Part shown: positions 15,171 to 50,119 of the stretch, in pieces | Numbering within the stretch: position 1 is the first letter of the stretch | Layout: each line of letters starts with the position of its first letter | Notes under the pieces: model-generated | Seen by the model: the letters and a program-made list of their open reading frames with translations, nothing else | Told to the model about the DNA's origin: nothing | The model's database searches: none | Program-made: the position numbers and the translations under genes | Source: an uncultured bacterium | Lineage (GTDB): Bacteria; Patescibacteriota; Minisyncoccia; UBA6257; 2-01-FULL-56-20 | Reading direction: 5' to 3' | DNA length: 50,826 nucleotides | Assembly: GCA_963844965.1 (NCBI GenBank) | Contig: CAWJQC010000002.1 | Location: forward strand, 1 to 50,826

Positions 15171-15174
15171 AAAT

Positions 15175-22095: not shown

Positions 22096-22097
22096 GT

Positions 22098-22306: not shown

Positions 22307-22338
22307 AAGGTCGAGCCGATCTTAATTAAGATAAAACT

Positions 22339-22515
22339 ATGAAAAAATATTTACTGATAATTGCATTGGCAGTAATTTTGCTTGGTAGTTTTGGGTTTGC
22401 TCAAGCTCGTGGTCGTTACGGCAGTTTCCGAGTTGGGGGTTACACGAGTCACGGCAAGGGCAGCCACTACGTAGGAGGTTATGTAAGGTCGTGCCATTTC
22501 CCATTCTGTTGGTAG
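22339..22515 (+). CDS. Small secreted Gly/Tyr/Cys-containing peptide (58 aa)
   Basis: MKKYLLIIALAVILLGSFGFAQA signal peptide, then RGRYGSFRVGGYTSHGKGSHYVGGYVRSCHFPFCW. Below the ORF-track size cut-off; read directly from sequence. Confidence 0.4.
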   Translation: MKKYLLIIALAVILLGSFGFAQARGRYGSFRVGGYTSHGKGSHYVGGYVRSCHFPFCW

Positions 22516-22519
22516 AATT

Positions 22520-22825
22520 ATGAATTTATTAAAACGAAATTGGAAAAATATAGCGATTTGGACGGTTGTTTTAGCTGTGGTTTTTGGGATTTATTCCTAC
22601 TATCACTGGTATGTTCCTTATTGGGATTTGAAACACGGGTTCGTGATGGTTAGTGGGTTCGATTGTCCGAGCGATCATCCGATTAAGGCTCACTTGGGAA
22701 GCATGATTTACCACCTACCAGGCGACCCTTACTATGCCAGAACCAGCGCATCAAACGGGGAATGTTTCGATACGGCCGACCACGCGGTTATGCAGGGATT
22801 TAGAGCACCATTTAATTATCGATAA
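22520..22825 (+). CDS. TM-anchored small Cys-containing domain protein
   Basis: TM helix IAIWTVVLAVVFGIYSYY, then DCPSDHPIKAHLGSMIYHLPGDPYYARTSASNGECFDT. Confidence 0.45.
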   Translation: MNLLKRNWKNIAIWTVVLAVVFGIYSYYHWYVPYWDLKHGFVMVSGFDCPSDHPIKAHLGSMIYHLPGDPYYARTSASNGECFDTADHAVMQGFRAPFNYR

Positions 22826-22841
22826 TACTTTAATAAATATA

Positions 22842-23819
22842 ATGAAAAGGGGGTTTGTTGCTATCGCCCTCATAATCTTTGGCTTGACGAGCTTTAGTGT
22901 TGCGGGAGCAATCTCCGGCGCTTGTTCTTCACATGGCGGGGTAAATTGTGATGCTGGCCCGGACGCATTTGGCTATGCTCAGTGCAACGATGAATGGACG
23001 AGCTCGGTAAGTTTTTATTCAGTGGACGAGTGTAATTCCAGCCCGACCATTAACTGCGCCCCACCTATCGCCATAGGATGTGTGGAACAGGGCTCGCTTC
23101 AGGCATATCAAAACAGCTATGCTCAATGGCAACAAAGTTGTCAGCAGGCCGCCATGCGAAGCGGCAATTCCCCAAATTGTACTGACCCTGCTTCAGAACA
23201 ACGTATTGCGACTTGTCAGCAAGAAATTCAATCATGGCAAATGCAACAACAAGCATATAATACCTGCGTCCGAAATGCCGAGGACATGCTCCTCAAGGTG
23301 GATTCTCAAAAACAACAGCTTGAATCAGAGCAACAAAATCAAGAGTTACAAAATGTAGCAAATGAAACTAAGTTGGTTCACGACGAAATGGTGAAGGCGC
23401 AGAATGACTTAGCGTGTCTTAAAAAGTACTCCGATTCTCATTCAGACCCATCAAATCCTGGTCAGTGTTTGTGCGACGACGGCTATCAATTCGCCACCAG
23501 CGTTTTCGACCAATCTAAAACAATCTGCATTTTGAGTCACGCTTTTTCTATTTTTTATAATCAAAATCTGAATGAGGTGGCTACCTCAAGTCCGGCCAAG
23601 ATACAAAAAATCAAGAACCCATTTTCGCAAAAACAAAAGTCGAGGCTGGACACAATTTGGGGCGCCACTTCGTCATCTGCAACGACCTCTTTGAACTCCA
23701 CCTCAGCTTCTGCTCTGGCAACAACCTCATCTCGGCCCGAAGTCAATAAATCAGGACAACTTCCGCCTAACGATGTTTGGTGGAAAAAGATTTTGAGATG
23801 GTTCGGATTGATGAGATAA
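22842..23819 (+). CDS. Secreted Cys-rich, Gln-rich coiled-coil protein
   Basis: Signal peptide MKRGFVAIALIIFGLTSFSVAGA. At least 14 Cys in the N-terminal half. QQ-rich heptad region. Confidence 0.5.
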   Translation: MKRGFVAIALIIFGLTSFSVAGAISGACSSHGGVNCDAGPDAFGYAQCNDEWTSSVSFYSVDECNSSPTINCAPPIAIGCVEQGSLQAYQNSYAQWQQSCQQAAMRSGNSPNCTDPASEQRIATCQQEIQSWQMQQQAYNTCVRNAEDMLLKVDSQKQQLESEQQNQELQNVANETKLVHDEMVKAQNDLACLKKYSDSHSDPSNPGQCLCDDGYQFATSVFDQSKTICILSHAFSIFYNQNLNEVATSSPAKIQKIKNPFSQKQKSRLDTIWGATSSSATTSLNSTSASALATTSSRPEVNKSGQLPPNDVWWKKILRWFGLMR

Positions 23820-23828
23820 AGCCGAAAT

Positions 23829-24206
23829 TTACTTTTGATGGTTTTTTTCTCTAATCTTTCTCGCCATCCTTATGGCTTCTAAGAAAGTGAGGGATGGGTC
23901 GCTGTTTATGTTTAATTTCTCCGGCGGTTTAAATCCGGCTCTATCAAGTATGTCCCGCGAAGCATGAAGCCTCACGTTCTCGTTTTTTGCCTCCTGCGAT
24001 AACTTATAAACCATAGACGCGGCATCCTCCGCCTTCTCGTCTAAATACGCCCTAATCGCAGGTTTTCGTAGGTTCTCTGCCCCTATAGAGTGCGCCGTGT
24101 TGCGATTCTTGGGCTTATAGGCGCGACTGGCGGCTTCCGTGGCGTTTCCCGTCCCAAGATACTCATTAGCGAATTTTTGTTGCCTGAGCGTCATGTTATT
24201 TTTCAT
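23829..24206 (-). CDS. Phage terminase small-subunit-like protein (Terminase_2-type N-terminus)
   Basis: MTLRQQKFANEYLGTGNATEAASRAYKPKNRNTAHSIGAENLRKPAIRAYLDEK matches the TerS consensus LT.KQ..F..EYL...NAT.AA..AGYS.K.A...GS.LL..P.V..YI. Confidence 0.65.
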   Translation of the reverse strand: MKNNMTLRQQKFANEYLGTGNATEAASRAYKPKNRNTAHSIGAENLRKPAIRAYLDEKAEDAASMVYKLSQEAKNENVRLHASRDILDRAGFKPPEKLNINSDPSLTFLEAIRMARKIREKNHQK

Positions 24207-24299: not shown

Positions 24300-24780
24300 T
24301 GCGTAACACTTCCGCAAATGGCCCCAACTTTCTGTTTTTGAGAACCGGCGTCGTGAATGCTCCGGCGGCATTCGTGCGCCTGCATCTCGGCGGCAAAACT
24401 TTTGCTTTGCAAAAGACCAAGCTTTCGCCGCCTCCGATAGCTTCTCAAAAACAGAAAGTTTCCGCTGTAGGTTTTATTGTGTTTTGCCCTTGGCAAAACA
24501 GCAATTTAATTGAGGCGGGAATTGGACACGAAAGGGGGTCGGGGAAAAGTGCCAGGGTTTCCCCGTCGAGGTGACCGAGCGGAGCGAGCGAGTAGTGAAG
24601 TCTCCCGCCCCCGCAAATGGCTCCAGTTTTCGTTTCGCGAGGGTCGCGTCGTTTTCTGCTGAAAACGCGCTGCATCTCGTCGCCTTCGCTCCTGCGATAC
24701 ACCCTTGCGAAACGAAAACTTCCGCTGTGGTAGTAAGGTGTTTCGCTCGCGCGAAACGGCTTTATTATGGGCAGCCCCGG
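24300..24780. repeat. Non-coding region made of two diverged tandem ~290-bp units. Contains the right-hand att repeat and a copy of the GGGTCGGGGAAA..GTTTCCCC element family.
   Basis: Paired segments GCAAATGGCCCCAACTTTCTGTTTTTGAG (24309) / GCAAATGGCTCCAGTTTTCGTTTCGCGAG (24611), CGCCTGCATCTCGGCGGC / CGCGCTGCATCTCGTCGCC, GAAAGTTTCCGCTGTAGG / GAAAACTTCCGCTGTGGTAG. Confidence 0.4.
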
Positions 24781-26522: not shown

Positions 26523-26719
26523 AAAGCGACCCCAAAGCCCTGGGGCCGCTATTTATTTGATTGGAAAAATATTTTAGGCGCTCTATCTCTCTTGGGACCA
26601 TGATTGTGTAAAGCGAGATTTTGTGGTAAAAATTATTTAAGCCGGCGTAGCTCCCCGAGGCAAAACCTTCGGTTTGCAACGGGGCAGGCAGGGCAAGCGT
26701 TTCACCCGCCCAAATTTCT

Positions 26720-26906
26720 GGCTGGATAGCTCAGCGGTAGAGCAGACGTTTTTCACCCGCCCACCTTTTATGCCAGGGTAGCTCAGCGGCAGAGCAGACG
26801 TTTCATAAGCGTCGGGTCGTGGGTTCGACTCCCACCCCTGGCACTAAGCAAAAAGGTGGGCGGGCAAGTAAGCGTCGGGTCGTGGGTTCGACTCCCACTC
26901 CAGCCA
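26720..26906 (+). tRNA. Split/interrupted tRNA gene: exon 1 is 26720-26755, exon 2 is 26871-26906, and a 115-nt intervening sequence contains a whole second tRNA
   Basis: GGCTGGA-TA-GCTC-AGCGGTA-GAGC-A-GACGT-TTTTCA ... A-GCGTC-GGGTC-GTGGG-TTCGACT-CCCAC-TCCAGCC-A. Acceptor and anticodon stems pair perfectly across the interruption. Confidence 0.5.
26772..26843 (+). tRNA. tRNA with anticodon CAT (elongator Met or Ile2-lysidine type; G1-C72 paired, so not initiator-like)
   Basis: GCCAGGG-TA-GCTC-AGCGGCA-GAGC-A-GACGT-TTCATAA-GCGTC-GGGTC-GTGGG-TTCGACT-CCCAC-CCCTGGC-A: canonical cloverleaf, no encoded CCA. Confidence 0.85.
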
Positions 26907-27542: not shown

Positions 27543-28163
27543 TTGTTCGAACATCGTCCCATCCTGCTCAACATGGAGAAAGACATAAATTCTCTCCGGC
27601 ACGATATCGTATTCAACGCCACCCTGCGCGGGCAGGCGTTCACGTTCCACAGCACGTGGGGGCTTTTCAGTCCGACGGAAATTGACGAAGGCAGCCGCCT
27701 GCTTCTGGAGAATCTGGAAATCCAGCCGGACGATGTCTGCCTGGATATCGGCTGCGGCTACGGAGCGCTCGGCGTGCCTATCGCCAAATTTTCGCCGCGG
27801 GGAAGAGTTCATATGGTGGACAAGGATTTCATCGCCGTGGAATATGCGAAGAAAAACGCCGCTGCAAACGGCGTCAAAAACTGCGAAATTTATTTGAGCA
27901 ATGGGTTCAGCGCCGTGCCGAAGGAACAGAAGTTTGATTTAATCGTTTCCAATCTTCCGGCGAAAACCGGAAAAGAGTTGTTTTGGATATTACTTGAAGA
28001 TGCGCGGAAGCATTTGGCTTCCGGCGGCAGGATTTATGTCGTGACCATTTCCGGCTTGCGCGAATTTATCAGACGCAATTTTCAGGAATTTTTCGGGAAT
28101 TACGAAAAGGTGAAGCAGGGGAGAAGCTACACGGTGGCGAGGGCCACAAACTTCCTTTCTTGA
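27543..28163 (+). CDS. Class I SAM-dependent methyltransferase (RsmC/small-MTase family)
   Basis: VCLDIGCGYGALGV (motif I), DLIVSNLP (motif IV). Confidence 0.7.
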   Translation: MFEHRPILLNMEKDINSLRHDIVFNATLRGQAFTFHSTWGLFSPTEIDEGSRLLLENLEIQPDDVCLDIGCGYGALGVPIAKFSPRGRVHMVDKDFIAVEYAKKNAAANGVKNCEIYLSNGFSAVPKEQKFDLIVSNLPAKTGKELFWILLEDARKHLASGGRIYVVTISGLREFIRRNFQEFFGNYEKVKQGRSYTVARATNFLS

Positions 28164-28220
28164 GGGACGGGTCACTGCATACTTGCAGTGCCCTTACTCT
28201 CGCCGCCTTCGCGGCTCCGA

Positions 28221-28240
28221 CCTGCCTGCCGGCAGGCAGG
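28221..28240. repeat. 20-bp perfect GC palindrome CCTGCCTGCCGGCAGGCAGG (also at 35473-35492; shorter copy at 50056-50067)
   Basis: Read directly. Here it is flanked by inverted copies of the upstream gene's last 16 bp (AACTTCCTTTCTTGAG 28150-28165 / CTCAAGAAAGGAAGTT 28249-28264). Confidence 0.7.
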
Positions 28241-28315
28241 GAAACTCTCAAGAAAGGAAGTTCTACGCTTGGACATAATTTTGTTTTCTTCGGCGAATTT
28301 TGCTACAATTTAAAA

Positions 28316-29385: not shown

Positions 29386-29571
29386 ATGGCGACAGGATTG
29401 TCTAATTTAAAAATATATCAAATGTCAGAAGATTTAGAGTTACGGGTTTTTGAACTGACAAAATTATTTCCGAAAGACGAAAAATATAGAAGTGTTGACC
29501 AGCTTCGTAGGTCGGCATCATCTGTAACAAATAATATCGCCGAGGCCCATCAAACTTCCAAACTACGATGA
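29386..29571 (+). pseudogene. Truncated four-helix-bundle protein gene fragment (61 aa), stop overlapping the pheT start
   Basis: IYQMSEDLELRVFELTKLFPKDEKYRSVDQLRRSASSVTNNIAEAHQ is the N-terminal half of the family seen intact at 15175-15537. Preceded by GAAGTT-type oligo repeats at 29340-29380. Confidence 0.5.
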
Positions 29572-31608
29572 AGTTTTCCTATTCGTTAATCAAAAAACTT
29601 CTGCCGGGGGCGCCGTCAAAAGCGCGGCTGATTGACGGTCTCAGCATGCATTCTTTTGAAACGGAGGACGCCGGAGGCGATATTCTGGAAATTTCTTTGC
29701 CGGCGAACCGCTGGTCGGACGCGGCATCGCACATAGGCATCGCGCGCGAAGTGGCGGCAGTTTTCAGCCTCAAATTCAAAAATCCGGTGAAGCTTATGGT
29801 GAATTATCCGGCCGAGAAGGGTCTTGTTTCCGTGGATGTGAAGGACGCGAAACTTTGTCCGCGCTATTCGGCACGCTATTTTGAACTGCAGAAACTCGGC
29901 GATTCGCCGAAGTGGATGCGCGATACTCTTATCTCCTGCGGTTTGCAGCCGATAAACAGCATCGTGGATATTATGAACTACGTTATGCTGGAAACCGGTC
30001 AGCCGTTACATGCGTTTGACGCGGATAAATTGGTGCCAAGTACCAAGCGTCAAGCGTCAAGGAAGAAGCGGAAATTGACTGCGGGAATTGTCGTCCGAAG
30101 AGCGGCGAAAGAGGAAAAAATGACGACACTTGACGGCCAGCATCTGGTTTTGGACCAAAGTGTGCTTGTTATCGCCTCAAGCCCGGCGGCCGGCGGATTG
30201 CCGCTCGCGGTCGCGGGCATAAAAGGAGGCCAAGGTCCGGCCGTGGGGCCGAAGACCAAAAGAATCGTCGTGGAAGCAGCGAGTTTCAATGCGGCGTCTG
30301 TCTATAGAGCGGCGCGCAAGCTCAACTTGCCGACGGACGCTGCCCAACGTTTCGGCCACGGCTTGAGTCCGGCGCTCGTGGAGATCGGCTTGGACCGCGC
30401 GACCGAACTTTTGCTCAAGAACAAGGCCTGGCTCCTGGATTCCGTGGATGTCTACCCCCGGCCGGTCGGCGATGAGGTCATTGAATTTGACGCGCGGAAG
30501 TATGAATCCGTCATCGGCGGGAAGGTTGACGAAAAAAAGGCGCGGAAATATTTTGAACTTCTGGGGTTTGAGTTGGAAGAGCCGAAATCTAAAACCATCG
30601 GCCAGAAATTATTGGTCAGGATCCCGTCTTGGCGCACCGACATAGAAGAGCCGGAGGACTTGATTGAGGAGATAATCCGCCTTGAGGGATACGGAAAACT
30701 GAAGCCGAGGCCGCCGCTCGTAAGTTTGTTACCCGCGCGTGAAGAAGATACGGTCATATTTAAAGACAAGGTCCGCAGAGTACTTCATGGTTATCGATTG
30801 GATGAGGTTTACAATTCATCCTTCCTCGGCGATGCCGACCTTGCGATGGCGGAATCAGCGGGCTTCGGCGGCGCGCGTTCGGCGCTAATTGAAGTGGAAA
30901 ATCCCATTGCCGACGACAAAAAATATTTGCGGCCCAGTTTGCTACCGCTTCTCGTGAAGAATATCGGAGACAATGCGCGATTTTTCGGCGAGATGGGAAT
31001 TTTTGAAATAGGAAAAATTTTTGAGGAGTCGCCGGGAAAAACGCCGGTGGAAAAATTGTCGCTTGGCGTCGCGCTTGCCGGGAAAAAAGAGCCGAAGCTG
31101 ATTTTGGAGCTCAAGGGACTCGCGGAAGATGTGCTTCGCGGTCTCGGCGTGGACGATTTTTCAATCATTGAACGGGGCGCGGCTTTGCGCGTTGAGGCGG
31201 ACCACAAGGTTTTGGGAATTATGCGTCAGGCAGATTCTCGGAAGGGGATGGATTGCCGCCCTCGGCGAGTTTGATCTGGAAAAAGTTTTGGAATTTACGG
31301 AGGAAGAGAAAGAATTCATAGCACCCAAAAGATTCCCGTCGGTAATGCGCGACATTTCCGTTTTGGCAAGCCGTGACACGCGCATCGGCGAAATTTTGGA
31401 GGAGATAGAGGACGCTTCCCCGAAATTCCTTGAGAATGTTGACTTGATCGACGAATATGTTGACGAACGGTTCGCGGGTAAACAGAGCATTACCTTCCGC
31501 ATCGTGTTTCAGGCCGACGACAGGACGCTTACCGATACAGAAGTGAACGCCGCGATGGAAAAAATTTCCGTGGCTCTCAAGAAAAGATTTGGTGCGGAGA
31601 TAAGGTAG
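29568..31608 (+). CDS. pheT: Phenylalanine--tRNA ligase beta subunit (short form), with an apparent frameshift near 31235
   Basis: MKFSYSLIKKLLPG N-terminus, B3/4 and B5 regions. C-terminal FDX-ACB domain (EFDLEKVLEFTEEE...RIVFQADDRTLTDTEVNAAMEKI) is in the +1 frame (ORF 31129-31608). Confidence 0.85.
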
Positions 31609-34039: not shown

Positions 34040-35308
34040 ATGAATAAAAAGGACGCGGAGAAAGTTTTCGTGGCGGTGTCCCCGCACCAAAAGGGGCATA
34101 GCGTCCTCCGCGCTTCCGCGCGGAGCGAAACTAAAAATGCCCCTTTGGTGACGGGGCGAGCCGGCGACGGTCTGAAAGAACATAAAGAGACTGTTTTTGT
34201 TGCAATGTCTGGAGGAGTTGATTCAAGCGTCGCGGCATTTTTATTGAAGGAACAGGGTTACGACGTCGTCGGCGTTTTTATGCGATGTTACAATCTTGAC
34301 GGCTGCGCCGAGCGGGACGCCGAGGACGCGCGCCGAGTTGCGGCGCGCCTCGGCATTCCTTTTTATGTTTGGGATTTTGAGAAGGAATATAAGAAACTCG
34401 TTGTTGATTACATGATTCGTGGCTACAGGAAGGGGATTACGCCGAATCCGGACGTGATGTGCAACAAGGAAATAAAATTCGGTTTGTTCTTTGAAAAAGC
34501 GCGCTCTATGGGTGCTGATTATGTCGCGACAGGGCACTATGTGCGCCTACGGCGCACATTGGAAAATGTTAATAGCGACACGCGAAATGGAAATCCAAAA
34601 TCCCAAATCCCATGTCGCATGTCGCTTTATGCTGCACGCGATAGCGCGAAGGACCAGAGCTATTTTTTGTGGACTTTGACGCAAGAGCAGTTGAAGCACT
34701 GCTTGTTTCCTATAGGCGATTATCTGAAATCGGAAGTGCGTGAGATCGCGCGCCGCGTTGGTTTGCCGACCGCCGAGAAAAAGGACTCGCAGGGAATTTG
34801 TTTTTTGGGACAAATTGCGCTCGGCGATTTTCTCAAGAAATATATTAAGCCGAAGCGCGGCGTGGTTCTGACTGTTTCCGGCGAAAAGATCGGCGAGCAC
34901 GAAGGCGCATATTATTACACGATAGGGCAGAGACATTTGGGTATTGCAAATCGCAAAGCGCAAAGCGCAAACAGCGAGCCATTTTACGTTGCAGAGAAAA
35001 ACGTGAAAACCAATACCATCACCGTTGCCGAAGGAGCGGAAAACCCGGCATTGTACAGGAAAGAAGTTGAACTGACCAGCCCCAATTTTATTGATTCGGC
35101 GTATCACTCCACCATTCGAGCGAATGGTGGAGTGAGCGTGCTTGCGCGGGTCAGATACCGTCAGCCGCTATTTAATGCATCATTCATAATTCGCAATTCT
35201 TTATTTAAATTAGTATTTGACAAGCCGCAGAAATTCGTAGCGGCGGGGCAATCGGCAGTATTCTACGCGGAAAACGGAGAATTACTCGGTGGAGGAATTA
35301 TTTTGTGA
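34040..35308 (+). CDS. mnmA: tRNA-specific 2-thiouridylase MnmA carrying oligo-repeat insertions
   Basis: VFVAMSGGVDSSVAAFLLKEQGYDVVGVFM PP-loop, KDQSYFLW, QGICFLG. N-terminal 50 aa contain an internal near-duplication (KVFVAVS / TVFVAMS), so the start is uncertain. Confidence 0.85.
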   Translation: MNKKDAEKVFVAVSPHQKGHSVLRASARSETKNAPLVTGRAGDGLKEHKETVFVAMSGGVDSSVAAFLLKEQGYDVVGVFMRCYNLDGCAERDAEDARRVAARLGIPFYVWDFEKEYKKLVVDYMIRGYRKGITPNPDVMCNKEIKFGLFFEKARSMGADYVATGHYVRLRRTLENVNSDTRNGNPKSQIPCRMSLYAARDSAKDQSYFLWTLTQEQLKHCLFPIGDYLKSEVREIARRVGLPTAEKKDSQGICFLGQIALGDFLKKYIKPKRGVVLTVSGEKIGEHEGAYYYTIGQRHLGIANRKAQSANSEPFYVAEKNVKTNTITVAEGAENPALYRKEVELTSPNFIDSAYHSTIRANGGVSVLARVRYRQPLFNASFIIRNSLFKLVFDKPQKFVAAGQSAVFYAENGELLGGGIIL

Positions 35309-35495
35309 TTATAGCTTCCGCCGCTGGGAAGTGGGTCGGGGAAACGGGAGTTTCCCTGCGTAGGAAATTACTCAAAACCGAGAGGTTGTGAGGGAACGAG
35401 CCACGACATAGTGTCGGGGCGAGCGACGCGGCGGGCCAGTCCGCAGTATTTTATTCCGCTAAGGAGGGAGACCTGCCTGCCGGCAGGCAGGTGCT
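35309..35495. repeat. Mini-insertion at the mnmA 3' end. Contains the GGGTCGGGGAAACGGGAGTTTCCC element, ends with the 20-bp palindrome, and is followed by a degenerate direct copy of mnmA's last 23 bp.
   Basis: mnmA ends ...CTCGGTGGAGGAATTATTTTGTGA (35284-35308). After the insert the sequence reads CTCGGCGGCGGGATTATTTTATAA (35496-35519). Confidence 0.5.
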
Positions 35496-35600
35496 CGGCG
35501 GCGGGATTATTTTATAATTTCCCCGTTACTTTGTCGGAAAGATCTTTTCAAAATGCCAAGGTCGGGATATTTTATTTTTATTTGTGTATAATTGTGATAT

Positions 35601-41371: not shown

Positions 41372-44300
41372 TTGGCGCGTTTGATTTTTTTGAATTTCGT
41401 CCCGGCAATTTTTGGCATGCCTAAATTTTTACCGGTTAAAAATTTTGCAAAATCAAAAACGCTCCTCGCGCCGTTCAATTTGAACGAGACGCAGCTCAAA
41501 TCATATGAGTGGTTCCTGAAAAAGGGACTGCGCGAGCTTTTGGATGAAATTTCTCCGATATACGACCATACCGGCAAGGAATTGGAATTGAATTTCAAAA
41601 ATTATCATTTTGACGAGCCGAAATACGACGAAGCGACTGCGCGCTATAAAGACGCCACCTATGAAGCGGCGTTGCGCGTTGAATTGGAGTTGATCTACAA
41701 AAGGACCAATCGCAAAGAGAAACAAGAGGTGTACTTCGGCGACTTTCCGGTAATGACCTCGCGCGGCACGTTCATAATAAACGGTGTGGAACGCGTCGTT
41801 GTTTCGCAGCTCATCCGTTCGGCAGGAGTTTATTTCACCTCCGTCCCCTGGCGCGGCAGGCAGCTTTTCGGCGCGAAGATAATTCCCAACCGCGGCGCTT
41901 GGCTTGAATTTGAGACCGATGTTGACGGCGGGATAGGCGTGAAGATTGACCGCCACAGGAAAGTCGCCGTCACCGAACTTCTTCGGATCTTCGGCGCGTC
42001 CAACGATGACATAGGTTCCAGATTTTCCGACATTGACCGCGGACAGGTCAAACACATTGAAGCGACTCTCAAGAAAGACGTGGCGAAAGACGCCGATGAA
42101 TCGTACATGGAGATTTACAGGCGTCTTCGGCCCGGCGATCCAGCCACGCCGGCTACGGCCAAAAGTTTGATAGACGCCATGTTCCAGCGGGCGGACCGTT
42201 ATGATCTTTCCACGGTCGGTCGCTTCAAGGTAAATCAGCGCCTGAATTTTGATAAGAGCAAAGAGAACCGGCTTTTGGACTCGGAGGATATTATTGCGAT
42301 TGTTCGGGAAATTATTTCTTTAAATAACAATCCGCGGGCGCAGGCGGACGACATTGACCACCTCGGGAACCGCCGTCTGAAGGCCGTGGGAGAACTTTTG
42401 CAGGGTCGTTTGCGCATCGGTCTCGCCCGTCTCCGCCGCATTATCCAAGACCGCATTTCCACGGAGGATAAGGAGAAAGTCATGCCGGCGCAGCTCGTGA
42501 ATTTCCGTCCGGTCTCCGCCGTAATTAAAGAATTTTTCGCATCCTCCCAGCTTTCGCAGTTCATGGACCAGGTGAATCCCTTAGCTGAGCTTGAACACAA
42601 GCGAAGGATCTCCGCTTTGGGACCGGGCGGGCTTACGAGAGAGCGCGCGAGCTTTGAGGTCCGCGACGTCCATAGATCGCATTACGGCAGAATTTGTCCG
42701 GTTCAAACGCCTGAAGGCGCGAATATCGGTCTCATAAACTACCTTGCGAGTTTCACGAGAATCAATGATTTCGGATTTCTGGAGACGCCATACATAAAAG
42801 TAGTTGACGGCGGGGTTACAGGCGATGTTGTTTGGCTGGACGGTCTTGAAGAGGAGAAATACAGGATTACCCATGCCGGTACGCCTCGCGACGCCGATGG
42901 CAAACTGCAGGGTTCCGTCGTGGAGGCGAGAATTTACGGCCAGCCTGGAACTTGCACGCCGAGCGAGGTTGATTTGATCGACGTGGCGCCCAATCAGTTT
43001 GTGAGCGTGGCGACATCCCTTATACCGTTTCTCCAACACGATGACGCGAACAGGGCTCTTATGGGTTCTAACATGCAGCGGCAGGCCGTTGTTTCCGTGC
43101 GGCCCGACGTTCCCTATGTCTCTACGGGGGACGAGGAGAAGGTTGCTATTGATTCCGGTTATGTCATCGTGGCAGAGGGTGATGGCAAAATAGCGGAAGT
43201 GGACGCCAATCACATTAAGGTTAAGTATGCGAGAACCACCAAGGATTACGTTTTGGAGAAATTTAAGCGTTCCAATCAATTTACTTGCATTTCGCAGCGG
43301 CCGCTTGTCGGGAAGGACCAGCCCATCAAGAAGGGCGATATTCTCGTGGACGGGCCGTCAATAGAGAACGGGACGCTTGCTTTGGGACAGAATCTTCTCG
43401 TGGCGTTTGTTTCATGGGACGGCGCGAACTTTGAGGACGCCATCGTGGTTTCCGAGCGGATCGTGCGGGACGACCTGTTCACGTCGATACACATAGAAGA
43501 TTTTTATCATGACGTGCGCGACACGAAGCTTGGCCCGGAAATAACGACCCCCGATATTCCCAACGTTTCCGAGGAAAAACTTAAGAACTTGGATGAGGAA
43601 GGGATTGTAAGAATCGGTGCCGAGGTGAAATCCGGCGATATTCTCGTCGGCAAAATTTCTCCCAAAGGCGAAGCCGAACTCACTTCCGAGGAGCGTCTTT
43701 TGCGGGCGATCTTCGGCGAGAAAGCGCGCGACGTGAAAGACACTTCTCTTACATTGCCCCACGGAAAACGCGGCAGGGTCGTGAGTATAAAAGTTTTTGA
43801 CAGAGAGAGGGGAGATAAGCTCGAGCCCGGCATAATAAAAAGGATTCAGGTTGAGGTCGCGCAGCTACGGAAAGTTCAGGCCGGGGACAAATTGGCCGGA
43901 CGTCACGGGAACAAAGGCGTAATTTCGCAGGTGCGCGCGATTGAAGATATGCCGTACTTAGAGGATGGAACTCCGGTGGACATAGTTTTGAATCCTTTGG
44001 GCGTCGCTTCGCGCATGAACCTCGGGCAGATTTTTGAAACACATCTCGGTTGGGCGGCGTCCAAACTTGGCTACCGTGCCGTGACTCCGGGGCTTGACTC
44101 GGCGAGCGAGGGAGATATCAAGGAGGAACTCAAGAAAGCCGGCCTTCCCGAGGACGGCAAAGTGACGCTTTTTGACGGCAGAACCGGCAAGCCATTTGAT
44201 AATAAGGTCATGGTCGGCCAGATTTACATGATGAAGCTCAATCACCTAGTTGAGGACAAGGCGCACATGCGCTCCATCGGTCCCTATTCTTTAATCACGC

Positions 44301-47300
44301 AGCAGCCGTTGGGCGGCAAAGCCCAATTCGGCGGCCAGCGCTTCGGAGAAATGGAAGTTTGGGCTCTTGAAGGATACGGAGCGAGGCACGTGTTGCAGGA
44401 AATGCTGACCATCAAGTCCGACGACGTTTTGGGCAGGGCCGCGGCTTACGAGTCCATAATCCGCGGCGAGACCATAAAGGAACCCAACCTGCCGGCGTCC
44501 TTCGGCGTTTTGGTGAATGAGCTTAAATCCCTCGGTTTCAACATTGAGCCGGTTTTTGACTCCGAATCGGCGCGCCGCGAAAATTTCCGGGCGCTAAAGA
44601 TAAGCGTTGCTTCTCCCGAGGAGATCCTCAAGTGGTCGCATGGCGAGGTTTTGAAGCCGGAGACCATCAATTATCGTACCCAGCGGCCGGAAAAGGACGG
44701 ACTTTTTTCCGAACGCATTTTCGGTCCGACAAAGGATTATGAATGTTATTGCGGCAAATACAGGCGTATCCGCTACAAGGGAGTGATCTGCGACAAGTGC
44801 GGAGTTGAGGTCACGAGAGCCGTCGTGAGGCGGGAACGCATCGGGCACATTTCGCTCGCTACTCCGGTTTCTCACATTTGGTTTTTGAAGAGCGTGCCGT
44901 CGCGCCTGAGTTTGCTTCTGGACGTGGCGACGCCGAAGCTGGAGCGTGTGATTTACTATTCCGCGTATATCGTCACTGAGGTGAACGAAGAACTCAAGAA
45001 GCAGGCACTCACCGAGCTTGAACGCGAGCTCAAGGGCAAATTGAAAGTCGGCGGCAGGGATAAAAGAACTAAAGTTGAGCTTGAAGAGGCGGCCGAAGTT
45101 ACAGGAAGTTATTTGAAGAACCTGCGCGTTGGGCAGGTATTGACCGAGATGGAGTATTTCAATCTTTCGCGGCGTTTCGGCAATGCGTTCAAGGCGGCAA
45201 GCGGCGCCGAATCCGTGAGGAAAATTCTTGAGGGCATGGATCTGAGGAAGGAGATTCAAAAAATAGAAAGGGAACTGGATGGGGCGAAAGATCCAATGTC
45301 GCAGTCAAAGCTCCTCCGCCGCCTTAAGATGTTCCGCTCCATGATCAAGAACAATAGCCGCCCGGAGTGGATGGTGATCACAACGCTTCCCGTGCTGCCT
45401 CCGGATCTGCGGCCGATGGTCGCCTTGGACGGCGGCAGGTACGCGACTTCCGATCTGAACGATCTCTACCGGCGCGTCATCAACAGGAACAACCGCCTGA
45501 AGAAACTTTTGGAAATAAAAGCGCCGGACATCATCGTCAAGAACGAAAAGAGGATGCTTCAGGAAGCCGTTGACGCTCTCATAGACAATTCGGCGCGTTT
45601 CGGCGTGCAGCAATTGTCCGCGCAAAGGCGGCCGCTCCGTTCGCTCGCCGACATGCTCAAGGGCAAGCAGGGCCGGTTCAGGCAGAATCTTTTGGGAAAA
45701 AGAGTTGATTATTCCGGCCGCTCGGTTATCGTCGTCGGTCCGAAGCTCAGGATTGACACCTGCGGCATACCGAAGCGCATGGCGCTGGAACTTTTCAAGC
45801 CGTTCGTGCTTTCGGAGGTCATGAAGAGGGGTCTTGCCCACAATATCAGGAGCGCTTCCAGGTTCATAGAGGAAGGCAGCGACGAGGTTTGGGGAATTTT
45901 GGAAGAAATCATCAAGGACAGGCGGGTGCTTTTGAACCGCGCGCCGACTTTGCACAGGTTGAGCGTCCAGGCGTTCCATCCGATTCTGGTTGAAGGCCTC
46001 GCCATTCAGATACCACCTCTCGTCTGCGTCGCTTTTAACGCTGACTTTGACGGCGATCAAATGGCGGTTCACCTGCCGTTGTCTGAGAACGCCCAGCGGG
46101 AAGCGGAAGAAATCATGGCGGCGGGGCGGAATCTTTTGAAACCCGCGACCGGAGAATTGATTACCACTCCGACGCAGGATGTCGTTTTGGGGATTTATTA
46201 TTTGACGAGAGCCGGGCTGGAGAGCGGTGCGAAAGCAAGTAAGGCCTATGCGTCCTATGAAGAAGCGATTTTGGCGCACGAGAACGACTATTTAGGTTTG
46301 CACGAGCCGATGAAATTCAACGGCATGGAAACGACGTTGGGACGCGTCATATTCAACCGCGCTCTTCAGGGGAAGGTGGATTTCGTGAATGAGACCATGA
46401 ACAAAAAGAAGCTTTCCAAGCTTATAGAAAAAGTGCTTGAGAATCATGGTTTGGATGTCACGCGCGACGTTTTGGACTCGGTGAAACTGCTCGGCTTTGA
46501 CTCGGCGACGCGCTCCGGCATAACTTGGTCAATGTCGGACTTGGTCACGCCGTCTGCCAAACCGGAAGTTATCGCCGAGTCGGAAAAGGAAATAAATTTG
46601 ATCCGCAGCCAGTATGGCGAGGGACTTTTGACGGAAAACGAGCGGCGCGTCCGAACCATCAGTGTTTGGGAAAAAACGAAGGAAAAAATAGCGAAGCTGG
46701 TCACGACCGCGATGTCGCCGGACAATTCCATTTACCAGATAATCGATTCCGGCTCGCGCGGCTCCTGGGCGCAGCCCATCCAGATGCTCGGCATGAAGGG
46801 CCTTGTTGCCAATCCGAAAGGCGAGACCATTGAACTGCCGATAAAATCGTCTTTCAAGGAGGGGTTGTCGGTTCTGGAGTATTTCATTTCAACGACCGGA
46901 GCGCGCAAAGGCACCACCGACACGGCTCTGAAAACGGCGCAAGCCGGCTACCTCACGCGCCGGTTGGTTGACGTTTCCCAGGATCTCATCATACGCGAAG
47001 AGGACTGCCGCGCGAAAGAAGGCATAGAAATTTTCCGTGAAGACGGCAAAGAATTCAACCAATCCTTCGCGAGCCGCTTGTTCTCAAGAACCGTTCTTGA
47101 GGATATCCGCGCAGGCCACAAGATTGTCATCCGCGCGGGAGAGATCATAGACAAACAGACCGCGGAGACCATAGAGAAATCAAAAATCGAATCGGTGAAA
47201 GTAAGGTCGCCAATTACTTGCAGAACCCTTTATGGTGTCTGCGCCACTTGTTATGGATTCGATCTTGGTAATAATAAACCGGTCAAGATCGGCAGCGCCG

Positions 47301-48175
47301 TAGGCGTTTTGGCCGCCCAGTCCATCGGCGAACCGGGGACGCAGCTTACGATGCGCACTTTCCACACCGGCGGTATTGCCGGAGTGGATATTACGCACGG
47401 TTTGCCCCGCGTTGAGGAAATATTTGAGGTGCGGCCTCCGAAGGGTAAGGCGATTTTGGCACCCGTAGACGCCACGGTGGAAAAAATCGAGGAAAGGGGC
47501 TCGATCAAGGTTATCAAGCTGATTCCGAGTGAGTCCAAGTCAAAGCAAAAATCCAAGTCCAAGACACTTGACTTCAGCGTTCACCGCTCCGCCCTCGTTT
47601 ACATTAAGGCCGGTGATAAAATAAGCAAAGGCGAGCAGCTTTCCGAGGGCCACTTGGACCTCCGCGAACTTTTGGCGCTCAAAGGCGTTTCCACCGTTGA
47701 GCGTTACATCATCAACGAGGTTCAGAGGATTTACATGTCCGAAGGCGCGTCAATAAACAACAAGCATATTGAGGTCATAATCCGCCAGATGTTCTCGCGC
47801 GCGAGGATTAGGGATTCCGGAGACGCCGAAGATTTTGTGATGGGAGAAATAGTTGAGAAAGACAAGGTTTTGGAGGAAAATCGTGAACTTAAGAAGCAAG
47901 GTCTGCGTCCGGCCAAAGCCGACGAAATGCTTTTGGGAATTACGCGGGTCGCGATCTCGGCGGAAAGTTTCCTCTCGGCGGCATCCTTCCAGGATACGGC
48001 GCGGGTGCTCGTTAAGGCGGCAATCGAAGGGAAAGTTGATCTCCTGCGTGGCCTTAAAGAGAACGTTATTATCGGCCGCCTGATTCCGACCGGTCCGATA
48101 AGAGACGAAACGCCGCCGGAAGCGAAAATTGAAGAGACATCTCGGGGCGAGGCAGGAGTGGCGGGAGAAGTATAA
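41372..48175 (+). CDS. rpoBC: DNA-directed RNA polymerase beta-beta' fusion (rpoB and rpoC in one 2267-aa ORF)
   Basis: rpoB motifs ([50 protein letters not shown]) continue without a stop through ...[55 protein letters not shown] into rpoC motifs ([35 protein letters not shown]). Confidence 0.85.
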
Positions 48176-49341: not shown

Positions 49342-49506
49342 ATGGCTAAGAAGATAAAAACAATTCTAAAAATCCAGATAGAAGCCGGCAAAGCGAATCC
49401 CGCGCCGTCGTCGCTTCGCTCCTCCTTAAAACCCAGCGGTTTTAATATTTCCGCCACAGGAAAACTCCCGTTTTCCCGACCCCTTTCCCGCGGCGCGGGA
49501 TTGTAA
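49342..49506 (+). other. Degenerate duplicate of the rplK 5' end (first 22 codons conserved, then divergent). Acts as a 54-codon upstream ORF.
   Basis: [22 protein letters not shown] then SSLRSSLKPSGFNISATGKLPFSRPLSRGAGL*. Contains inverted repeat AATCCCGCGCCG / CGCGGCGCGGGATT. Confidence 0.5.
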
Positions 49507-49518
49507 TATATTTTTACG

Positions 49519-49944
49519 ATGGCAAAAAAAATTAAGACAGTACTTAAAATACAAATAGAGGCCGGTAAAGCGAATCCCGCGCCGCCTATCGGCACGGCTT
49601 TGGGCCCACAGGGAATCAACATTCAGGATTTCTGCAAGAAGTTCAACGACATGACGAAAGACATGGCGGGCGACGTTGTTCCCGCGGAAATCACTATTTT
49701 TGAAGATAGAAGTTTTACGTTTAAATTAAAAACTCCGCCGGCGTCAGCTTTGCTCAAAAAAGCCGCCGGTATTGAAAAGGGCTCCGGCGACCCATTAAAA
49801 AACAAAGTGGGGAAAGTTACGCGCGCCGATATCAGGAAAATTGCCGAGCGAAAGATGCCCGATTTGAACGCTAACGACATAGACGCCGCGATGAGAATTA
49901 TAGAAGGCACGGCGCGCAATATGGGAATTGAAATCATAGATTGA
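49519..49944 (+). CDS. rplK: 50S ribosomal protein L11
   Basis: [43 protein letters not shown]. Confidence 0.9.
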
Positions 49945-50076
49945 TTTCGATTCCCATGTTGGGGTAAGGAGGGGTCGGGAGGAGATGGAAATATACTCCC
50001 ATGTAGGAGATTATTCAGAACCGTGGGGTCCCGGAGGAGCGAGTTGCTGTATAGCCCTGCCGGCAGGCAGGGACTC
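49945..50076. repeat. Mini-insertion at the rplK 3' end, with GGGTCGGGAGGAGATGGAAATATACTCCC element and CCTGCCGGCAGG palindrome. Followed by a degenerate direct copy of rplK's last ~30 bp.
   Basis: rplK ends CGCGCAATATGGGAATTGAAATCATAGATTGA. Sequence at 50077-50110 reads CGCGACGGAACATGGGCATCGAAATCGTAGAGTGA. Confidence 0.5.
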
Positions 50077-50119
50077 GCGACGGAACATGGGCATCGAAAT
50101 CGTAGAGTGATTTAAGTTT

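What the first reader, a model, noticed from the sequence alone, without database searches (positions are those of the whole stretch)
35309..35520. Family of mini-insertions at gene 3' ends that carry a GC palindrome and re-create or duplicate the host gene terminus
Three loci share one architecture. (1) mnmA ends at 35308. A ~185-bp insert follows, containing GGGTCGGGGAAACGGGAGTTTCCC and ending in the perfect 20-bp palindrome CCTGCCTGCCGGCAGGCAGG (35473-35492), then a degenerate direct copy of mnmA's last 23 bp including a second stop (CTCGGCGGCGGGATTATTTTATAA). (2) rplK ends at 49944. A ~130-bp insert follows, with GGGGTCGGGAGGAGATGG..ACTCCC and CCTGCCGGCAGG (50056-50067), then a degenerate copy of rplK's last ~30 bp (..ATGGGCATCGAAATCGTAGAGTGA). 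(3) The methyltransferase ends at 28163, followed by a ~80-bp insert with the same 20-bp palindrome (28221-28240); here the gene's last 16 bp reappear inverted (28249-28264). A fourth related copy (GGGGGTCGGGGAAAAGTGCCAGGGTTTCCCC..GAGCGGAGCGAGCGAG) lies at 24525-24600 next to the right end of the integrated element. Element DNA followed by a displaced copy of the gene 3' end is the footprint left by integrative elements that target the 3' ends of genes (established for tRNA- and gene-end-targeting integrases). These look like miniaturised or decayed versions of such elements, or small non-autonomous elements mobilised by the serine recombinase in the window (inference).
Basis: partly seen in the sequence, partly recalled or inferred. 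Interest (0 to 1): 0.55.

Follow-up and report, generated by a model that had tools for sequence, protein, structure and literature searches.

The report
Hairpin element that replaces gene ends
A non-coding hairpin element of about 100 bases, common in Patescibacteria, sits between a working gene end and an older displaced copy of that end, which shows how tiny mobile DNA can enter essential genes without breaking them; the GC palindrome is a separate 20-base hitch-hiker.

Summary
The window is a whole Patescibacteria contig.

At mnmA and rplK a conserved, structured, ORF-less element ("E", core about 75 nt) lies between the functional gene terminus and a displaced stub of the same terminus.
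- rplK is bracketed by two inverted E copies, with stubs of both its 5' and 3' ends.
- The mnmA stub is 90 nt, not 23.
- Functional ends and stubs differ almost only at third codon positions (24 of 26 differences).

E is absent from Rfam, and no paper in the searched library contains its core strings. It occurs in more than 120 metagenome loci, mostly about 70 nt after a tRNA gene and followed by an exact repeat of that tRNA's 3' end. A locus-specific arm upstream of E is complementary to the target.

A related genome has empty rplK sites and two have occupied ones. In one of the occupied genomes, functional end and stub are swapped relative to the window.

The 20-bp palindrome is an independent micro-insertion. 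It occurs exactly in more than 120 loci across many phyla, and it entered the mnmA stub and the rplK E copy secondarily. The methyltransferase locus has the palindrome but no E and no direct duplication.

Best reading: E is a non-autonomous integrative cassette that brings a replacement gene end. The enzyme is unknown, and nothing links E to the window's serine recombinase.

The parts
35240..35308 (+). Functional 3' end of mnmA (copy A, AAGQSAVFYAENGELLGGGIIL*), duplicated downstream
35318..35324 (+). Short 'arm' CCGCCGC, complementary to the first bases of the stub (GCGGCGG)
35325..35427 (+). E1: copy of the E element. The core 35325-35400 scores 64.6 bits. Then follow hairpin CGACATAGTGTCG and GGGGCGAGCGAC
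35428..35517 (+). Displaced mnmA 3' end (stub B, 29 codons plus stop). It is 70/90 identical, ungapped, to the functional mnmA end of a Jorgensenbacteria genome that carries the same in-frame insertion
35472..35491 (.). PAL: 20-bp perfect palindrome CCTGCCTGCCGGCAGGCAGG, in frame (LPAGRQ) inside stub B; an independent micro-insertion
34040..34081 (+). Displaced mnmA 5' stub (MNKKDAEKVFVAVS), repeated as ETVFVAMS at 34187-34210
34082..34186 (+). In-frame palindromic insert at the PP-loop motif (not an E copy). A homologous insert is present in at least 6 other mnmA homologues
49342..49407 (+). Displaced rplK 5' stub (first 22 codons). Its ORF runs through inverted E3 and stops 13 nt before the real ATG
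49408..49490 (-). E3: best E copy in the window (core 49417-49490, 92.3 bits), inverted relative to rplK
49491..49502 (+). Arm CGGCGCGGGATT, a perfect inverted copy of the stub end AATCCCGCGCCG (49396-49407)
49519..49944 (+). Functional rplK, bracketed by the inverted E3 and the direct E2
49945..49960 (+). Arm TTTCGATTCCCATGTT, an inverted copy of the rplK end (15/16 to the stub; 14/16 to the functional end, where both mismatches would be G.U in RNA)
49964..50083 (+). E2: degenerate E copy (core 49964-50043, 35.3 bits). Its last hairpin carries a PAL remnant
50056..50071 (.). PAL remnant (4 nt deleted) inside the E2 terminal hairpin. The 20-mer is present with 1 mismatch in L248 and absent in L247
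50084..50110 (+). Displaced rplK 3' end (NMGIEIVE*). The same sequence type is the functional end in L248
24528..24616 (+). E4: truncated E copy (second hairpin missing), followed by a tRNA-like 3' stub CTCCCGCCCCCGCA
28148..28264 (.). Methyltransferase locus: a 16-bp inverted repeat made from the gene end brackets an 85-nt insert containing PAL (28221-28240). It is not an E copy and has no direct duplication
26720..26906 (+). Related phenomenon: tRNA-Met (26772-26844) between 14-bp inverted repeats, nested at anticodon position 35/36 of an older tRNA-Met (halves 26720-26755 and 26869-26906)

Best explanation
The region holds three things: a copy of a previously undescribed non-coding mobile element of Patescibacteria (E), the displaced original 3' end of mnmA, and an unrelated 20-bp palindrome inside that displaced end.

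E has a core of about 75 nt with two covarying hairpins, one long-range base pair and a variable terminal hairpin. A locus-specific arm precedes it; this arm is the reverse complement of the target sequence.

E always has the same polarity: working gene terminus, then arm, then E, then a stub of the same gene terminus that starts at a highly conserved motif. These motifs include the tRNA T-loop, the L11 NPAP|P and TAR|NMG motifs, GQSAVFY in mnmA, and GTPase G1 motifs.

I read E plus the adjacent terminus copy as a small non-autonomous integrative cassette.
- It enters a gene by recombination within the terminal segment it shares with that gene (Campbell-type or site-specific).
- Its own copy completes the gene, and the resident end is pushed beyond E.
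- The arm, E and the terminus segment can fold into a hairpin that mimics the target duplex, probably as single-stranded DNA.
- Excision and re-entry, or gene conversion, at different crossover points shuffle which copy is functional.

Shown: the anatomy, family size, structure, empty and occupied alleles, coding-type divergence, the swap, and the independence of the palindrome.
Inferred: the circular or cassette intermediate, the single-stranded fold-back as the active form, and a trans-acting recombinase or nuclease, which was not identified.
For: FAMILY AND STRUCTURE
- On 101 sequences, 96.2% of cells are paired, with 140 double-sided changes against 39 in shuffles (0 of 500 shuffles reach this). 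The long-range pair between columns 43 and 64 is included.
- Rfam gives no match, and no paper in the searched library contains the core strings.

ARCHITECTURE
- 52 of 116 loci have a same-strand tRNA (29 species) ending 30-100 nt upstream.
- 38 of those 52 have an exact direct repeat of at least 12 nt of that tRNA's 3' end after E (control 0%).
- 37 of 52 have an arm with at least 10 nt exactly complementary to that tRNA's T-loop region (control 10%).
- Protein-gene loci show terminal duplications on either side of E at rpsI, histidine-kinase and GTPase genes.

INSERTION EVENT
- L249 is empty at both rplK ends and keeps a normal terminator. L247 and L248 are occupied exactly as in the window.
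- mnmA relatives L252 and L253 are empty.

BOTH COPIES ARE CODING-TYPE
- 24 of 26 differences fall at third codon positions (P = 5e-10).
- The stub is 70/90 identical to a functional mnmA end elsewhere.

EXCHANGE BETWEEN COPIES
- The window's functional rplK end matches the L248 stub type (23/27), and the window stub matches the L248 functional type (23/27).
- The L247 stub and functional 5' copies share derived changes next to the junction.

SINGLE-STRANDED DNA RATHER THAN mRNA
- E is sense at 3' ends and antisense at 5' ends.
- G.U-type and A.C-type mismatches are about equal.
- The terminal hairpin loop is usually C-GAA-G.
Against: - No recombinase, nuclease or transposase recurs next to E and none was found in the window apart from a large serine recombinase 15-30 kb away. 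The enzymology is therefore unknown.
- A cassette must carry a terminus segment and an arm matched to each of dozens of targets. How new specificities arise is unexplained.
- The spacers between the gene end and the arm are not conserved between loci, so no travelling cassette sequence other than E itself is visible.
- Some E copies sit between tRNA genes with no arm and no duplication, so duplication is not obligatory.
- The tRNA repeats are short (12-23 nt), which is short for RecA-only recombination.
- GNRA-like loops and the tertiary pair would also fit a functional RNA.
- The pattern used to collect family members fixed 22 bases, so apparent conservation is inflated.
Confidence: 0.5

Rival explanations
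1. Homing driven by an endonuclease. A nuclease, either a homing endonuclease acting in trans or one once encoded beside E and since lost, cuts the conserved motif in E-less alleles. Repair copies the donor's gene end, terminator and E, using the gene body and the stub as homology arms.
For: - All junctions lie in the most conserved motifs of essential genes and tRNAs, the usual signature of homing-endonuclease targets.
- In the same kinds of genome, GIY-YIG and LAGLIDADG ORFs lie in or beside tRNA genes. The GIY-YIG ORFs of L107 (Pfam GIY-YIG, E = 2e-14) and L038 sit between a tRNA stub and a complete tRNA.
- Duplications run past the gene end into diverged terminators, as expected for donor flanks that were co-converted.
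Against: - E has no ORF yet is conserved, with compensatory changes. A decaying endonuclease gene would not be.
- The occupied allele still contains the intact target in the functional copy, so immunity to re-cutting is unexplained.
- No nuclease is consistently linked to E.
Confidence: 0.2
2. These are miniaturised or decayed remnants of larger integrase-borne islands (attL-attR scars), or small elements moved by the serine recombinase encoded in the window. The GC palindrome is their recombination site.
For: - The repeat at tRNA genes resembles attL/attR and starts in the T-loop.
- A large serine recombinase and prophage-like genes lie at 18.8-24.2 kb, with a truncated E copy at 24.5 kb.
Against: - The palindrome is absent from most E copies (5 of 121 have one nearby) and from the orthologous E2 in L247.
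- The palindrome occurs in phyla where the Rfam-independent E model finds nothing.
- E is uniform and structured, not a random deletion remnant.
- No integrase recurs beside E.
- 5' ends are also affected.
Confidence: 0.08
3. E is primarily a functional small RNA or cis-acting RNA module, for example a processing, stability or terminator element co-transcribed with tRNAs and ribosomal-protein genes. The duplications are by-products of how it spreads.
For: - The first hairpin mostly has GNRA-type loops and there is a covarying long-range pair.
- Several copies sit exactly between two tRNA genes with no duplication, where RNase P and RNase Z would release them.
- The arm of E2 pairs with the functional rplK end, with a compensatory C-G/A-T change between L247 and the window and two G.U-compatible positions.
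Against: - The orientation is fixed relative to the stub, not to transcription. E is antisense to the gene at 5' ends.
- There is no excess of G.U over A.C mismatches.
- There are many copies per genome at unrelated genes.
- There is no Rfam family.
Confidence: 0.12
4. E is a miniature single-strand transposon of the IS200/IS605 or REP type. Its two similar hairpins would be the left and right ends bound by a Y1 (HUH) transposase. It would insert into hairpin-prone DNA, and the gene-end copies would arise separately.
For: - The two hairpins share AAAAC..GTTTT.
- A DNA-type C-GAA-G mini-hairpin is present.
- The left flank and the element's right end both finish in GAC/AAC, complementary to GTC upstream of the first hairpin.
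- The strands show symmetric mismatches.
Against: - This does not explain the regular direct duplication of gene termini or the target-specific arm.
- No Y1 transposase was seen in the window or near E.
Confidence: 0.08
5. Assembly artefact or chance similarity.
For: The source is a metagenome-assembled contig.
Against: - The same architecture, at the same rplK positions, occurs in independent assemblies from NCBI, JGI and Logan.
- Chance expectations are far exceeded.
Confidence: 0.02

Closest known systems
Integrative elements that target the 3' ends of tRNA and protein genes (tyrosine-integrase islands; integrase-less attL-attR derivatives such as CIMEs). Recalled from memory: Williams 2002 NAR on tRNA sublocations; S. 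thermophilus CIMEs.
   Same: - The incoming DNA carries a replacement gene end.
- The resident end is displaced to the far junction.
- At tRNA genes the repeat begins in the T-loop and runs to the 3' end.
   Different: - The whole 'element' is about 100-200 nt with no integrase.
- The same conserved core is associated with at least 29 tRNA species and many protein genes.
- 5' ends are targeted as well.
- A locus-specific inverted arm is present.
- The core is a folded structure with compensatory substitutions.
Gene-end duplication caused by free-standing homing endonuclease genes in fungal mitochondria. Recalled from memory: Allomyces atp6, Paquin et al. 1994 PNAS.
   Same: - There is a foreign-type C-terminal coding segment followed by inserted DNA.
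- The native C-terminus persists downstream as a pseudo-fragment.
- Junctions lie in conserved motifs.
- Differences between the copies are synonymous-type.
   Different: - E has no endonuclease ORF.
- The host is bacterial.
- tRNA genes are the main targets.
- The inserted non-coding part is itself the conserved unit.
Folded single-stranded recombination sites: integron attC sites and the CTX phage attP(+) hairpin used by XerCD (recalled from memory).
   Same: - Two inverted arms enclose a region of about 60-120 nt.
- The arms form a stem that resembles the duplex target, with mismatches at defined places (GGGAATCGAAC opposite GTGAGATTCCC).
- Structure is conserved more strongly than arm sequence.
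   Different: - No IntI-type or Xer involvement is shown.
- The central region is highly conserved in sequence, whereas in attC it is variable.
- The copies are singletons at gene termini rather than arrays at attI or insertions at dif.
Very small palindromic insertions: Rickettsia palindromic elements (in frame within genes) and cyanobacterial small dispersed repeats. Recalled from memory: Ogata 2000; Elhai 2008. This comparison concerns the 20-bp palindrome only.
   Same: - It is tiny and palindromic, and makes no target duplication.
- It is tolerated in frame in protein loops: the mnmA stub, and the functional mnmA of P0082.
- It is nested within other repeats and within itself.
   Different: - It is only 20 bp.
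- The exact sequence is shared by Patescibacteria, Bacteroidota, Omnitrophota, Planctomycetota, Gammaproteobacteria and others.

Membership tests
Site-specific integrative element (integrase-type attL/attR) | Direct repeat (core) at both junctions, with one copy completing the target gene | tested here: met
   - 38 of 52 tRNA loci have an exact repeat of at least 12 nt.
- mnmA and rplK show a functional end plus a stub.
Site-specific integrative element (integrase-type attL/attR) | An integrase or recombinase gene within or next to the element | tested here: not met
   - No recurrent recombinase lies within 2.5 kb of E in 120 loci.
- There is only about 70 nt between the tRNA and E.
Site-specific integrative element (integrase-type attL/attR) | Empty (attB-only) alleles in relatives | tested here: met
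   L249 is empty at both rplK ends. L252 and L253 are empty at the mnmA 3' end.
Site-specific integrative element (integrase-type attL/attR) | Excised circular form carrying attP | not testable with these tools
   This needs read-level data. The swap of functional and stub copies between the window and L248 is only indirect evidence.
Homing endonuclease cassette | An endonuclease ORF (GIY-YIG, LAGLIDADG, HNH and similar) inside the inserted segment | tested here: not met
   - E copies are ORF-less.
- GIY-YIG and LAGLIDADG ORFs occur in neighbouring tRNA cassettes but not in E units.
Homing endonuclease cassette | Insertion at a long, highly conserved target in a conserved gene | tested here: met
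   Junctions lie at the T-loop, the L11 NPAP and TAR|NMG motifs, mnmA GQSAVFY, and GTPase G1 motifs.
Rfam RNA families (all 4227 models) | A covariance-model match at or near the gathering score | tested here: not met
   There is no match for E1 or for 8 canonical E loci at E up to 0.1-10. Only tRNAs were hit.
Structured RNA gene in general | Covariation that supports a fold | tested here: met
   96.2% paired, 140 double-sided changes against 39 in shuffles, 0 of 500 shuffles reach this.
Structured RNA gene in general | Strand-specific signature (G.U tolerated, A.C not) and an orientation tied to transcription | tested here: not met
   - G.U-type and A.C-type departures are about equal.
- E is antisense to the gene at 5' ends.
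IS200/IS605-type single-strand transposon or REP element | Subterminal hairpins at both ends and no target duplication | tested here: inconclusive
   Two related hairpins are present, but long direct duplications of the target are the rule.
IS200/IS605-type single-strand transposon or REP element | A Y1 (HUH) transposase or RAYT in the genome | not tested
   Only 50 kb of the genome is available. No Y1 (HUH) transposase match was returned for the 19 window ORFs scanned against Pfam.
Integron attC site | R''/R' boxes (RYYYAAC...GTTRRRY) and arrays next to intI/attI | tested here: not met
   - Arms are locus-specific, and only the tRNA-type arms resemble the boxes, because of the T-loop.
- The copies are singletons and no intI was seen.
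Diversity-generating retroelement (template/variable repeat at a gene 3' end) | Differences between the repeats confined to adenines of the template; a reverse transcriptase nearby | tested here: not met
   The differences are third-position changes of all kinds. No reverse-transcriptase domain was returned for the 19 window ORFs scanned against Pfam.

The most novel reading that the evidence does not exclude
E is a retargetable insertion module. Its upstream arm acts as a guide, complementary to the intact target across the insertion point. It would program an unidentified trans-acting recombinase or nuclease, or the fold-back itself would serve as substrate for a host recombinase acting on imported single-stranded DNA. 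The result would be insertion at whatever conserved motif the arm matches, with a rescue copy of the gene end keeping the host alive. That would be a natural 'cut or integrate, then rescue' system in ultra-small bacteria. Independently, the 20-bp palindrome would be the smallest known horizontally spreading insertion, preferring hairpin loops.
Probability: 0.15. Interest if true: 0.9.

Novelty: new variant of a known kind. Interest (0 to 1): 0.66.

Why it matters
- Patescibacteria have tiny genomes in which almost every gene is essential. Here a non-coding element of about 100 nt repeatedly occupies the ends of ribosomal-protein, tRNA-modification, GTPase and tRNA genes without inactivating them.
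- The element is unannotated: it is absent from Rfam and from the searched literature. It creates pseudo-fragments and N-terminal extensions that mislead gene callers. For example, mnmA is called as 422 aa from the stub's start codon.
- It gives markers for recombination between lineages.
- If the target-complementary arm really directs insertion, this would be a compact programmable integration system.
- The cross-phylum 20-bp palindrome raises a separate question: how is an exact 20-mer spread or regenerated in unrelated bacteria?

Tried and rejected
1. Rfam, at gathering thresholds and at permissive E-values, on the window and on canonical E loci: only tRNA and LOOT were found.
2. Literature searches for the palindrome and for E core strings: zero papers. 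Topical searches found only work on group I introns in Patescibacteria tRNAs, which is relevant to the 35/36 position but does not cover E.
3. Diversity-generating retroelement (template/variable repeat): rejected because the differences are not adenine-specific.
4. Stop-codon reassignment or read-through of TGA: rejected, because long ORFs are intact under the standard code.
5. Target-site duplication that then drifted neutrally: rejected for the window, because 24 of 26 differences are at third codon positions and the stub matches a functional allele elsewhere.
6. Palindrome as part of E: rejected.
7. Methyltransferase insert as an E copy: no covariance-model or BLAST match.
8. Viral origin: one pattern match in the viral collection, which the E model did not recover at E up to 0.001 in a run with default speed filters.
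9. Exact-protein look-ups for near-identical strains of the source genome: only a 1.7-kb contig was found.
10. A search for a conserved neighbouring enzyme by clustering all ORFs within 2.5 kb of 121 E copies found housekeeping genes and a few homing endonucleases, with no consistent partner.
11. I could not derive a single consensus insertion motif across tRNA and protein targets.
Full report
SOURCE AND CONTEXT

The window is an entire 50,826-bp contig of a Patescibacteria (Paceibacteria-type) metagenome-assembled genome. The mnmA and L11 proteins are on record only from a contig of exactly this length. Their nearest relatives are annotated as Wolfe-, Lipton-, Jorgensen- and Harrisonbacteria. 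The gene order rpoBC-rpsF-ssb-rplK and efp-ydjM-mnmA is shared with relatives.

CHECKING THE OBSERVATION

A scan of every ORF for a downstream repeat of its C-terminal peptide found only mnmA and rplK; the only other hits lie in a tandem-repeat protein. Translating the 'insert' changed the picture.
- Frame 3 of 35428-35517 reads AAGQSAVFYSAKEGDLPAGRQVLGGGIIL*, a full alternative mnmA C-terminus of 29 codons.
- The 20-bp palindrome (PAL, 35472-35491) lies in frame within it, encoding LPAGRQ.
- A translated self-comparison then showed that the first 22 codons of rplK are also duplicated (49342-49407 versus 49519-49584).
- mnmA's N-terminus is duplicated too (EKVFVAVS / ETVFVAMS).
- tRNA-Met has partial copies on both sides.

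THE REAL REPEATED UNIT

BLAST of the mnmA spacer against the window hit the minus strand just upstream of rplK. Aligning the three copies defined an element I call E:
GGGAAAG-GGGTC-[GGGAAAAC-GNRA-GTTTTCCC]-G-TGGCGGAAATA-[CTAAAACC-NNNN-GGTTTTAG]-GGAGC-[variable hairpin]-GAC.

The E model did not recover that viral match at E up to 0.001 with its default speed filters.

On 101 sequences both hairpins and one long-range pair (columns 43-64) covary.
- 96.2% of cells are paired.
- There are 140 double-sided changes against 39 in shuffles, and 0 of 500 shuffles reach the observed values. Slid controls are far lower.

A caveat applies. The pattern fixed 22 bases, so sequence conservation is inflated. 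The covarying columns were not fixed by the pattern.

A covariance model built from this alignment finds four copies in the window:
- E3, 49417-49490 on the minus strand (92 bits);
- E1, 35325-35400 (65 bits);
- E2, 49964-50043 (35 bits);

The methyltransferase insert is not a member. Rfam has no family for E, and no paper in the library contains its core strings.

ARCHITECTURE

The order is always: working gene terminus, then a short locus-specific arm, then E, then a stub of the same terminus.
- In 52 of 116 distinct loci a same-strand tRNA gene (29 different species) ends 30-100 nt upstream.
- In 38 of these, an exact repeat of at least 12 nt of that tRNA's 3' end follows E (0% in controls with swapped loci).
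- In 37, the arm has at least 10 nt exactly complementary to that tRNA's T-loop region (10% in controls).
- The arm tracks unusual T-loops (for example GTGCAAATCC in L129), so it is templated by the local target rather than being a fixed terminal repeat.

In the window the arms are:
- CGGCGCGGGATT, 12/12 with the 5' stub end;
- TTTCGATTCCCATGTT, 15/16 with the 3' stub;
- CCGCCGC at mnmA.

At gene 5' ends E is inverted relative to the gene. Its polarity is therefore fixed with respect to the stub, not to transcription. This holds for rplK and for several GTPase and Rossmann-fold genes in other loci.

Junctions fall in the most conserved motifs: the T-loop; KANPAP|P and GTAR|NMG of L11; V|AAGQSAVFY of MnmA; and G1 motifs of GTPases. 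A minority of copies lie exactly between two tRNA genes with neither arm nor duplication.

EVIDENCE THAT THESE ARE INSERTIONS

Three syntenic rplK loci were recovered.
- L249 (L11 89% identical) has neither E nor stubs. It has 74-nt and 81-nt intergenic regions and an ordinary terminator.
- L247 (92%) and L248 (94%) have the same two E copies, arms and stubs as the window.
- For mnmA, the syntenic relative L252 and also L253 lack E, the stub and PAL at the 3' end.

NATURE OF THE DUPLICATED ENDS

Between functional ends and stubs, 24 of 26 nucleotide differences are at third codon positions (P = 5e-10 under equal positions). A copy that had drifted neutrally since a target-site duplication would not look like this.

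The mnmA stub is 70/90 identical, ungapped and including the palindrome, to the functional mnmA end of a Jorgensenbacteria genome (P0082, locus L122). The window's working end needs a 21-nt gap to align with it. About 10 of 120 MnmA homologues carry in-frame insertions at exactly this loop.

The two rplK 3' ends are exchanged between close relatives.
- The window's functional end matches the L248 stub (23/27).
- The window's stub matches the L248 functional end (23/27).
- The same-position comparisons give only 19/27.

In L247 the 5' stub and the functional copy share derived substitutions next to the junction that the arm lacks, and its stub begins like the window's functional copy. The two copies therefore exchange sequence or position, and each type is functional in some lineage. 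That explains the coding-type divergence. GC3 of mnmA and rplK (0.52) is below that of their immediate neighbours (about 0.60-0.70). This is compatible with foreign input but is not decisive.

THE PALINDROME IS A SEPARATE ELEMENT

These come from Patescibacteria, Omnitrophota, Bacteroidota (including cultured Winogradskyella, Flagellimonas, Longitalea and Flavivirga), Planctomycetota, Gammaproteobacteria, Bdellovibrionota, Thermodesulfovibrionia and Chloroflexi.
- It makes no target duplication.
- It often has A..T flanks.
- It sits inside tRNA stubs at D-loop or anticodon-loop borders, and is nested in other copies of itself one base off centre.
- Its flanks are complementary more often than in controls (11% versus 2.5% with at least 7 nt).
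- No E was found in 24 PAL-bearing Patescibacteria loci, and only 5 of 121 E copies have a PAL-like sequence within 200 nt.
- In the rplK E2 copy the palindrome lies in the terminal hairpin. It is complete with one mismatch in L248, has lost 4 nt in the window, and is absent in L247. It therefore entered after E2 did.
- At the methyltransferase locus it lies in an 85-nt insert bracketed by a perfect 16-bp inverted repeat made from the gene end, with no direct duplication.

MECHANISM

Shown:
- a conserved folded non-coding unit;
- fixed polarity;
- a replacement terminus plus a displaced terminus;
- an arm complementary to the target;
- presence/absence polymorphism;
- exchange between the two copies.

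Inferred: E together with the adjacent terminus copy behaves as a small integrative cassette. A circle consisting of terminus segment, spacer, arm and E, recombining with the chromosomal gene inside the shared terminal segment, yields exactly the observed order. Excision at one end of the homology followed by re-entry at the other end swaps which copy is functional, as seen between the window and L248.

In such a circle, or in imported single-stranded DNA, arm, E and terminus would fold into a stem-loop whose stem mimics the duplex target. In the tRNA-type copies this stem has regular mismatches (GGGAATCGAAC opposite GTGAGATTCCC). That recalls integron attC sites and the CTX phage attP hairpin (from memory).

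Three points favour DNA over mRNA as the active form:
- the orientation rule;
- the equal numbers of G.U-type and A.C-type mismatches;
- the C-GAA-G loop of the last hairpin.

However, the GNRA-type loops and the tertiary pair keep an RNA role open. The enzyme is unknown. No recombinase, transposase or nuclease recurs near E. In the window, the scanned ORFs yielded only a large serine recombinase within a prophage-like block.

A nuclease-driven homing model is the main rival. Patescibacteria tRNA genes in the collected loci (L107, L038) do contain GIY-YIG cassettes with a tRNA stub on one side and a complete tRNA on the other. L107 gives a Pfam GIY-YIG hit at E = 2e-14 and L038 shows the same layout.

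COMPARISON WITH KNOWN SYSTEMS

The principle is that of integrative elements targeting gene 3' ends, and of the homing-endonuclease-mediated C-terminal replacement described for fungal mitochondrial atp6 (both from memory). E fails the membership tests that require an encoded integrase or endonuclease. It differs in its size, its conserved fold, its locus-specific inverted arm, its use of 5' as well as 3' termini, and the breadth of its targets. The palindrome resembles Rickettsia palindromic elements and cyanobacterial small dispersed repeats in behaviour, but it is shorter and is shared exactly across phyla.

VERDICT

It is wrong about the palindrome, about the unity of the three loci and about the serine recombinase.
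- E appears to be an undescribed family: a new variant of a known kind of system, with an open and potentially interesting targeting mechanism.

Noticed in passing
It makes no target duplication. It sits inside tRNA stubs at loop borders and nests in copies of itself one base off centre. No paper in the searched library contains the sequence.
   Followed up: partly
window 26641-26906; L016 3990-4225: tRNA-Met (26772-26844), flanked by 14-bp inverted repeats (CCCGCCCACCTTTT / AAAAGGTGGGCGGG), is nested at anticodon position 35/36 of an older tRNA-Met whose two halves are intact. A still older layer lies upstream. The same junction sequences occur in another Patescibacteria genome (L016). Position 35/36 is also the group I intron site reported for Patescibacteria tRNAs (PMC13011429).
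   Followed up: partly
window 34040-34210; proteins P0022, P0067, P0082, P0084, P0093, P0108: mnmA starts with a displaced 14-codon stub followed by an in-frame palindromic insert (105 nt in the window) placed exactly before the SGGVDSS PP-loop motif. A homologous stub plus insert (xVFVAMS|PxKSLRDxTGQAGG..|VFVAMSGG) is read as an N-terminal extension in at least six other MnmA proteins.
   Followed up: partly
L107 3650-4110; L038 2060-2560; L227: Small GIY-YIG (Pfam E = 2e-14 for L107) and LAGLIDADG-like ORFs lie in or beside tRNA genes. In L107 and L038 the GIY-YIG ORF sits between a 5' tRNA stub, which has picked up the palindrome, and a complete tRNA. This is an endonuclease-bearing counterpart of the E architecture.
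   Followed up: partly
window 49918-49944 and 50084-50110 versus L248 455-483 and 631-657: The functional and stub versions of the rplK 3' end are swapped between the window and its closest relative (23/27 cross-matches against 19/27 same-position matches).
   Followed up: yes
window 18856-24206: A prophage-like block: a large serine recombinase (18856-20436, minus strand), LOOT RNA (21955-22077, 74 bits), a terminase small subunit (23829-24206, minus strand) and two ORFs without Pfam hits. The truncated E4 and a tRNA-like 3' stub lie just beyond it, at 24528-24616.
   Followed up: no
window 41372-48175: rpoB and rpoC are fused into a single 2267-codon ORF. The syntenic loci L246 and L247 also show a product of about 2230-2246 residues.
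   Followed up: no
window 13602-15537: gatA appears as two overlapping ORFs (14647-15093 and 13602-14873, minus strand). Next to it are perfect 33/39-nt tandem repeats (15065-15164) and a gene for a 23S rRNA intervening-sequence / bAvd-like protein (15175-15537).
   Followed up: no
window 29568-31608: pheT is split into two overlapping ORFs (29568-31274 and 31129-31608). This suggests a frameshift or another small insertion.
   Followed up: no
window 3790-4660: A dense set of direct repeats with 33-, 49-, 67- and about 200-nt periods lies upstream of a large Ig-domain surface protein gene, which itself contains long tandem repeats (6.4-9.3 kb).
   Followed up: no
L144, L150, L163 (about 19 nt before the E core): A variant palindrome, CCTGCCTGCCGGTAGGCAGG, is inserted at the same point of E (between GGGAAAGG and GGTCGGG) in three different loci. 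Either this point is a hot spot, or an E subfamily spread after acquiring the palindrome.
   Followed up: no
L252 2350-2760: About 440 nt of GC-rich, ORF-poor sequence follows mnmA in the syntenic relative. It may be a structured RNA gene; this was not checked.
   Followed up: no
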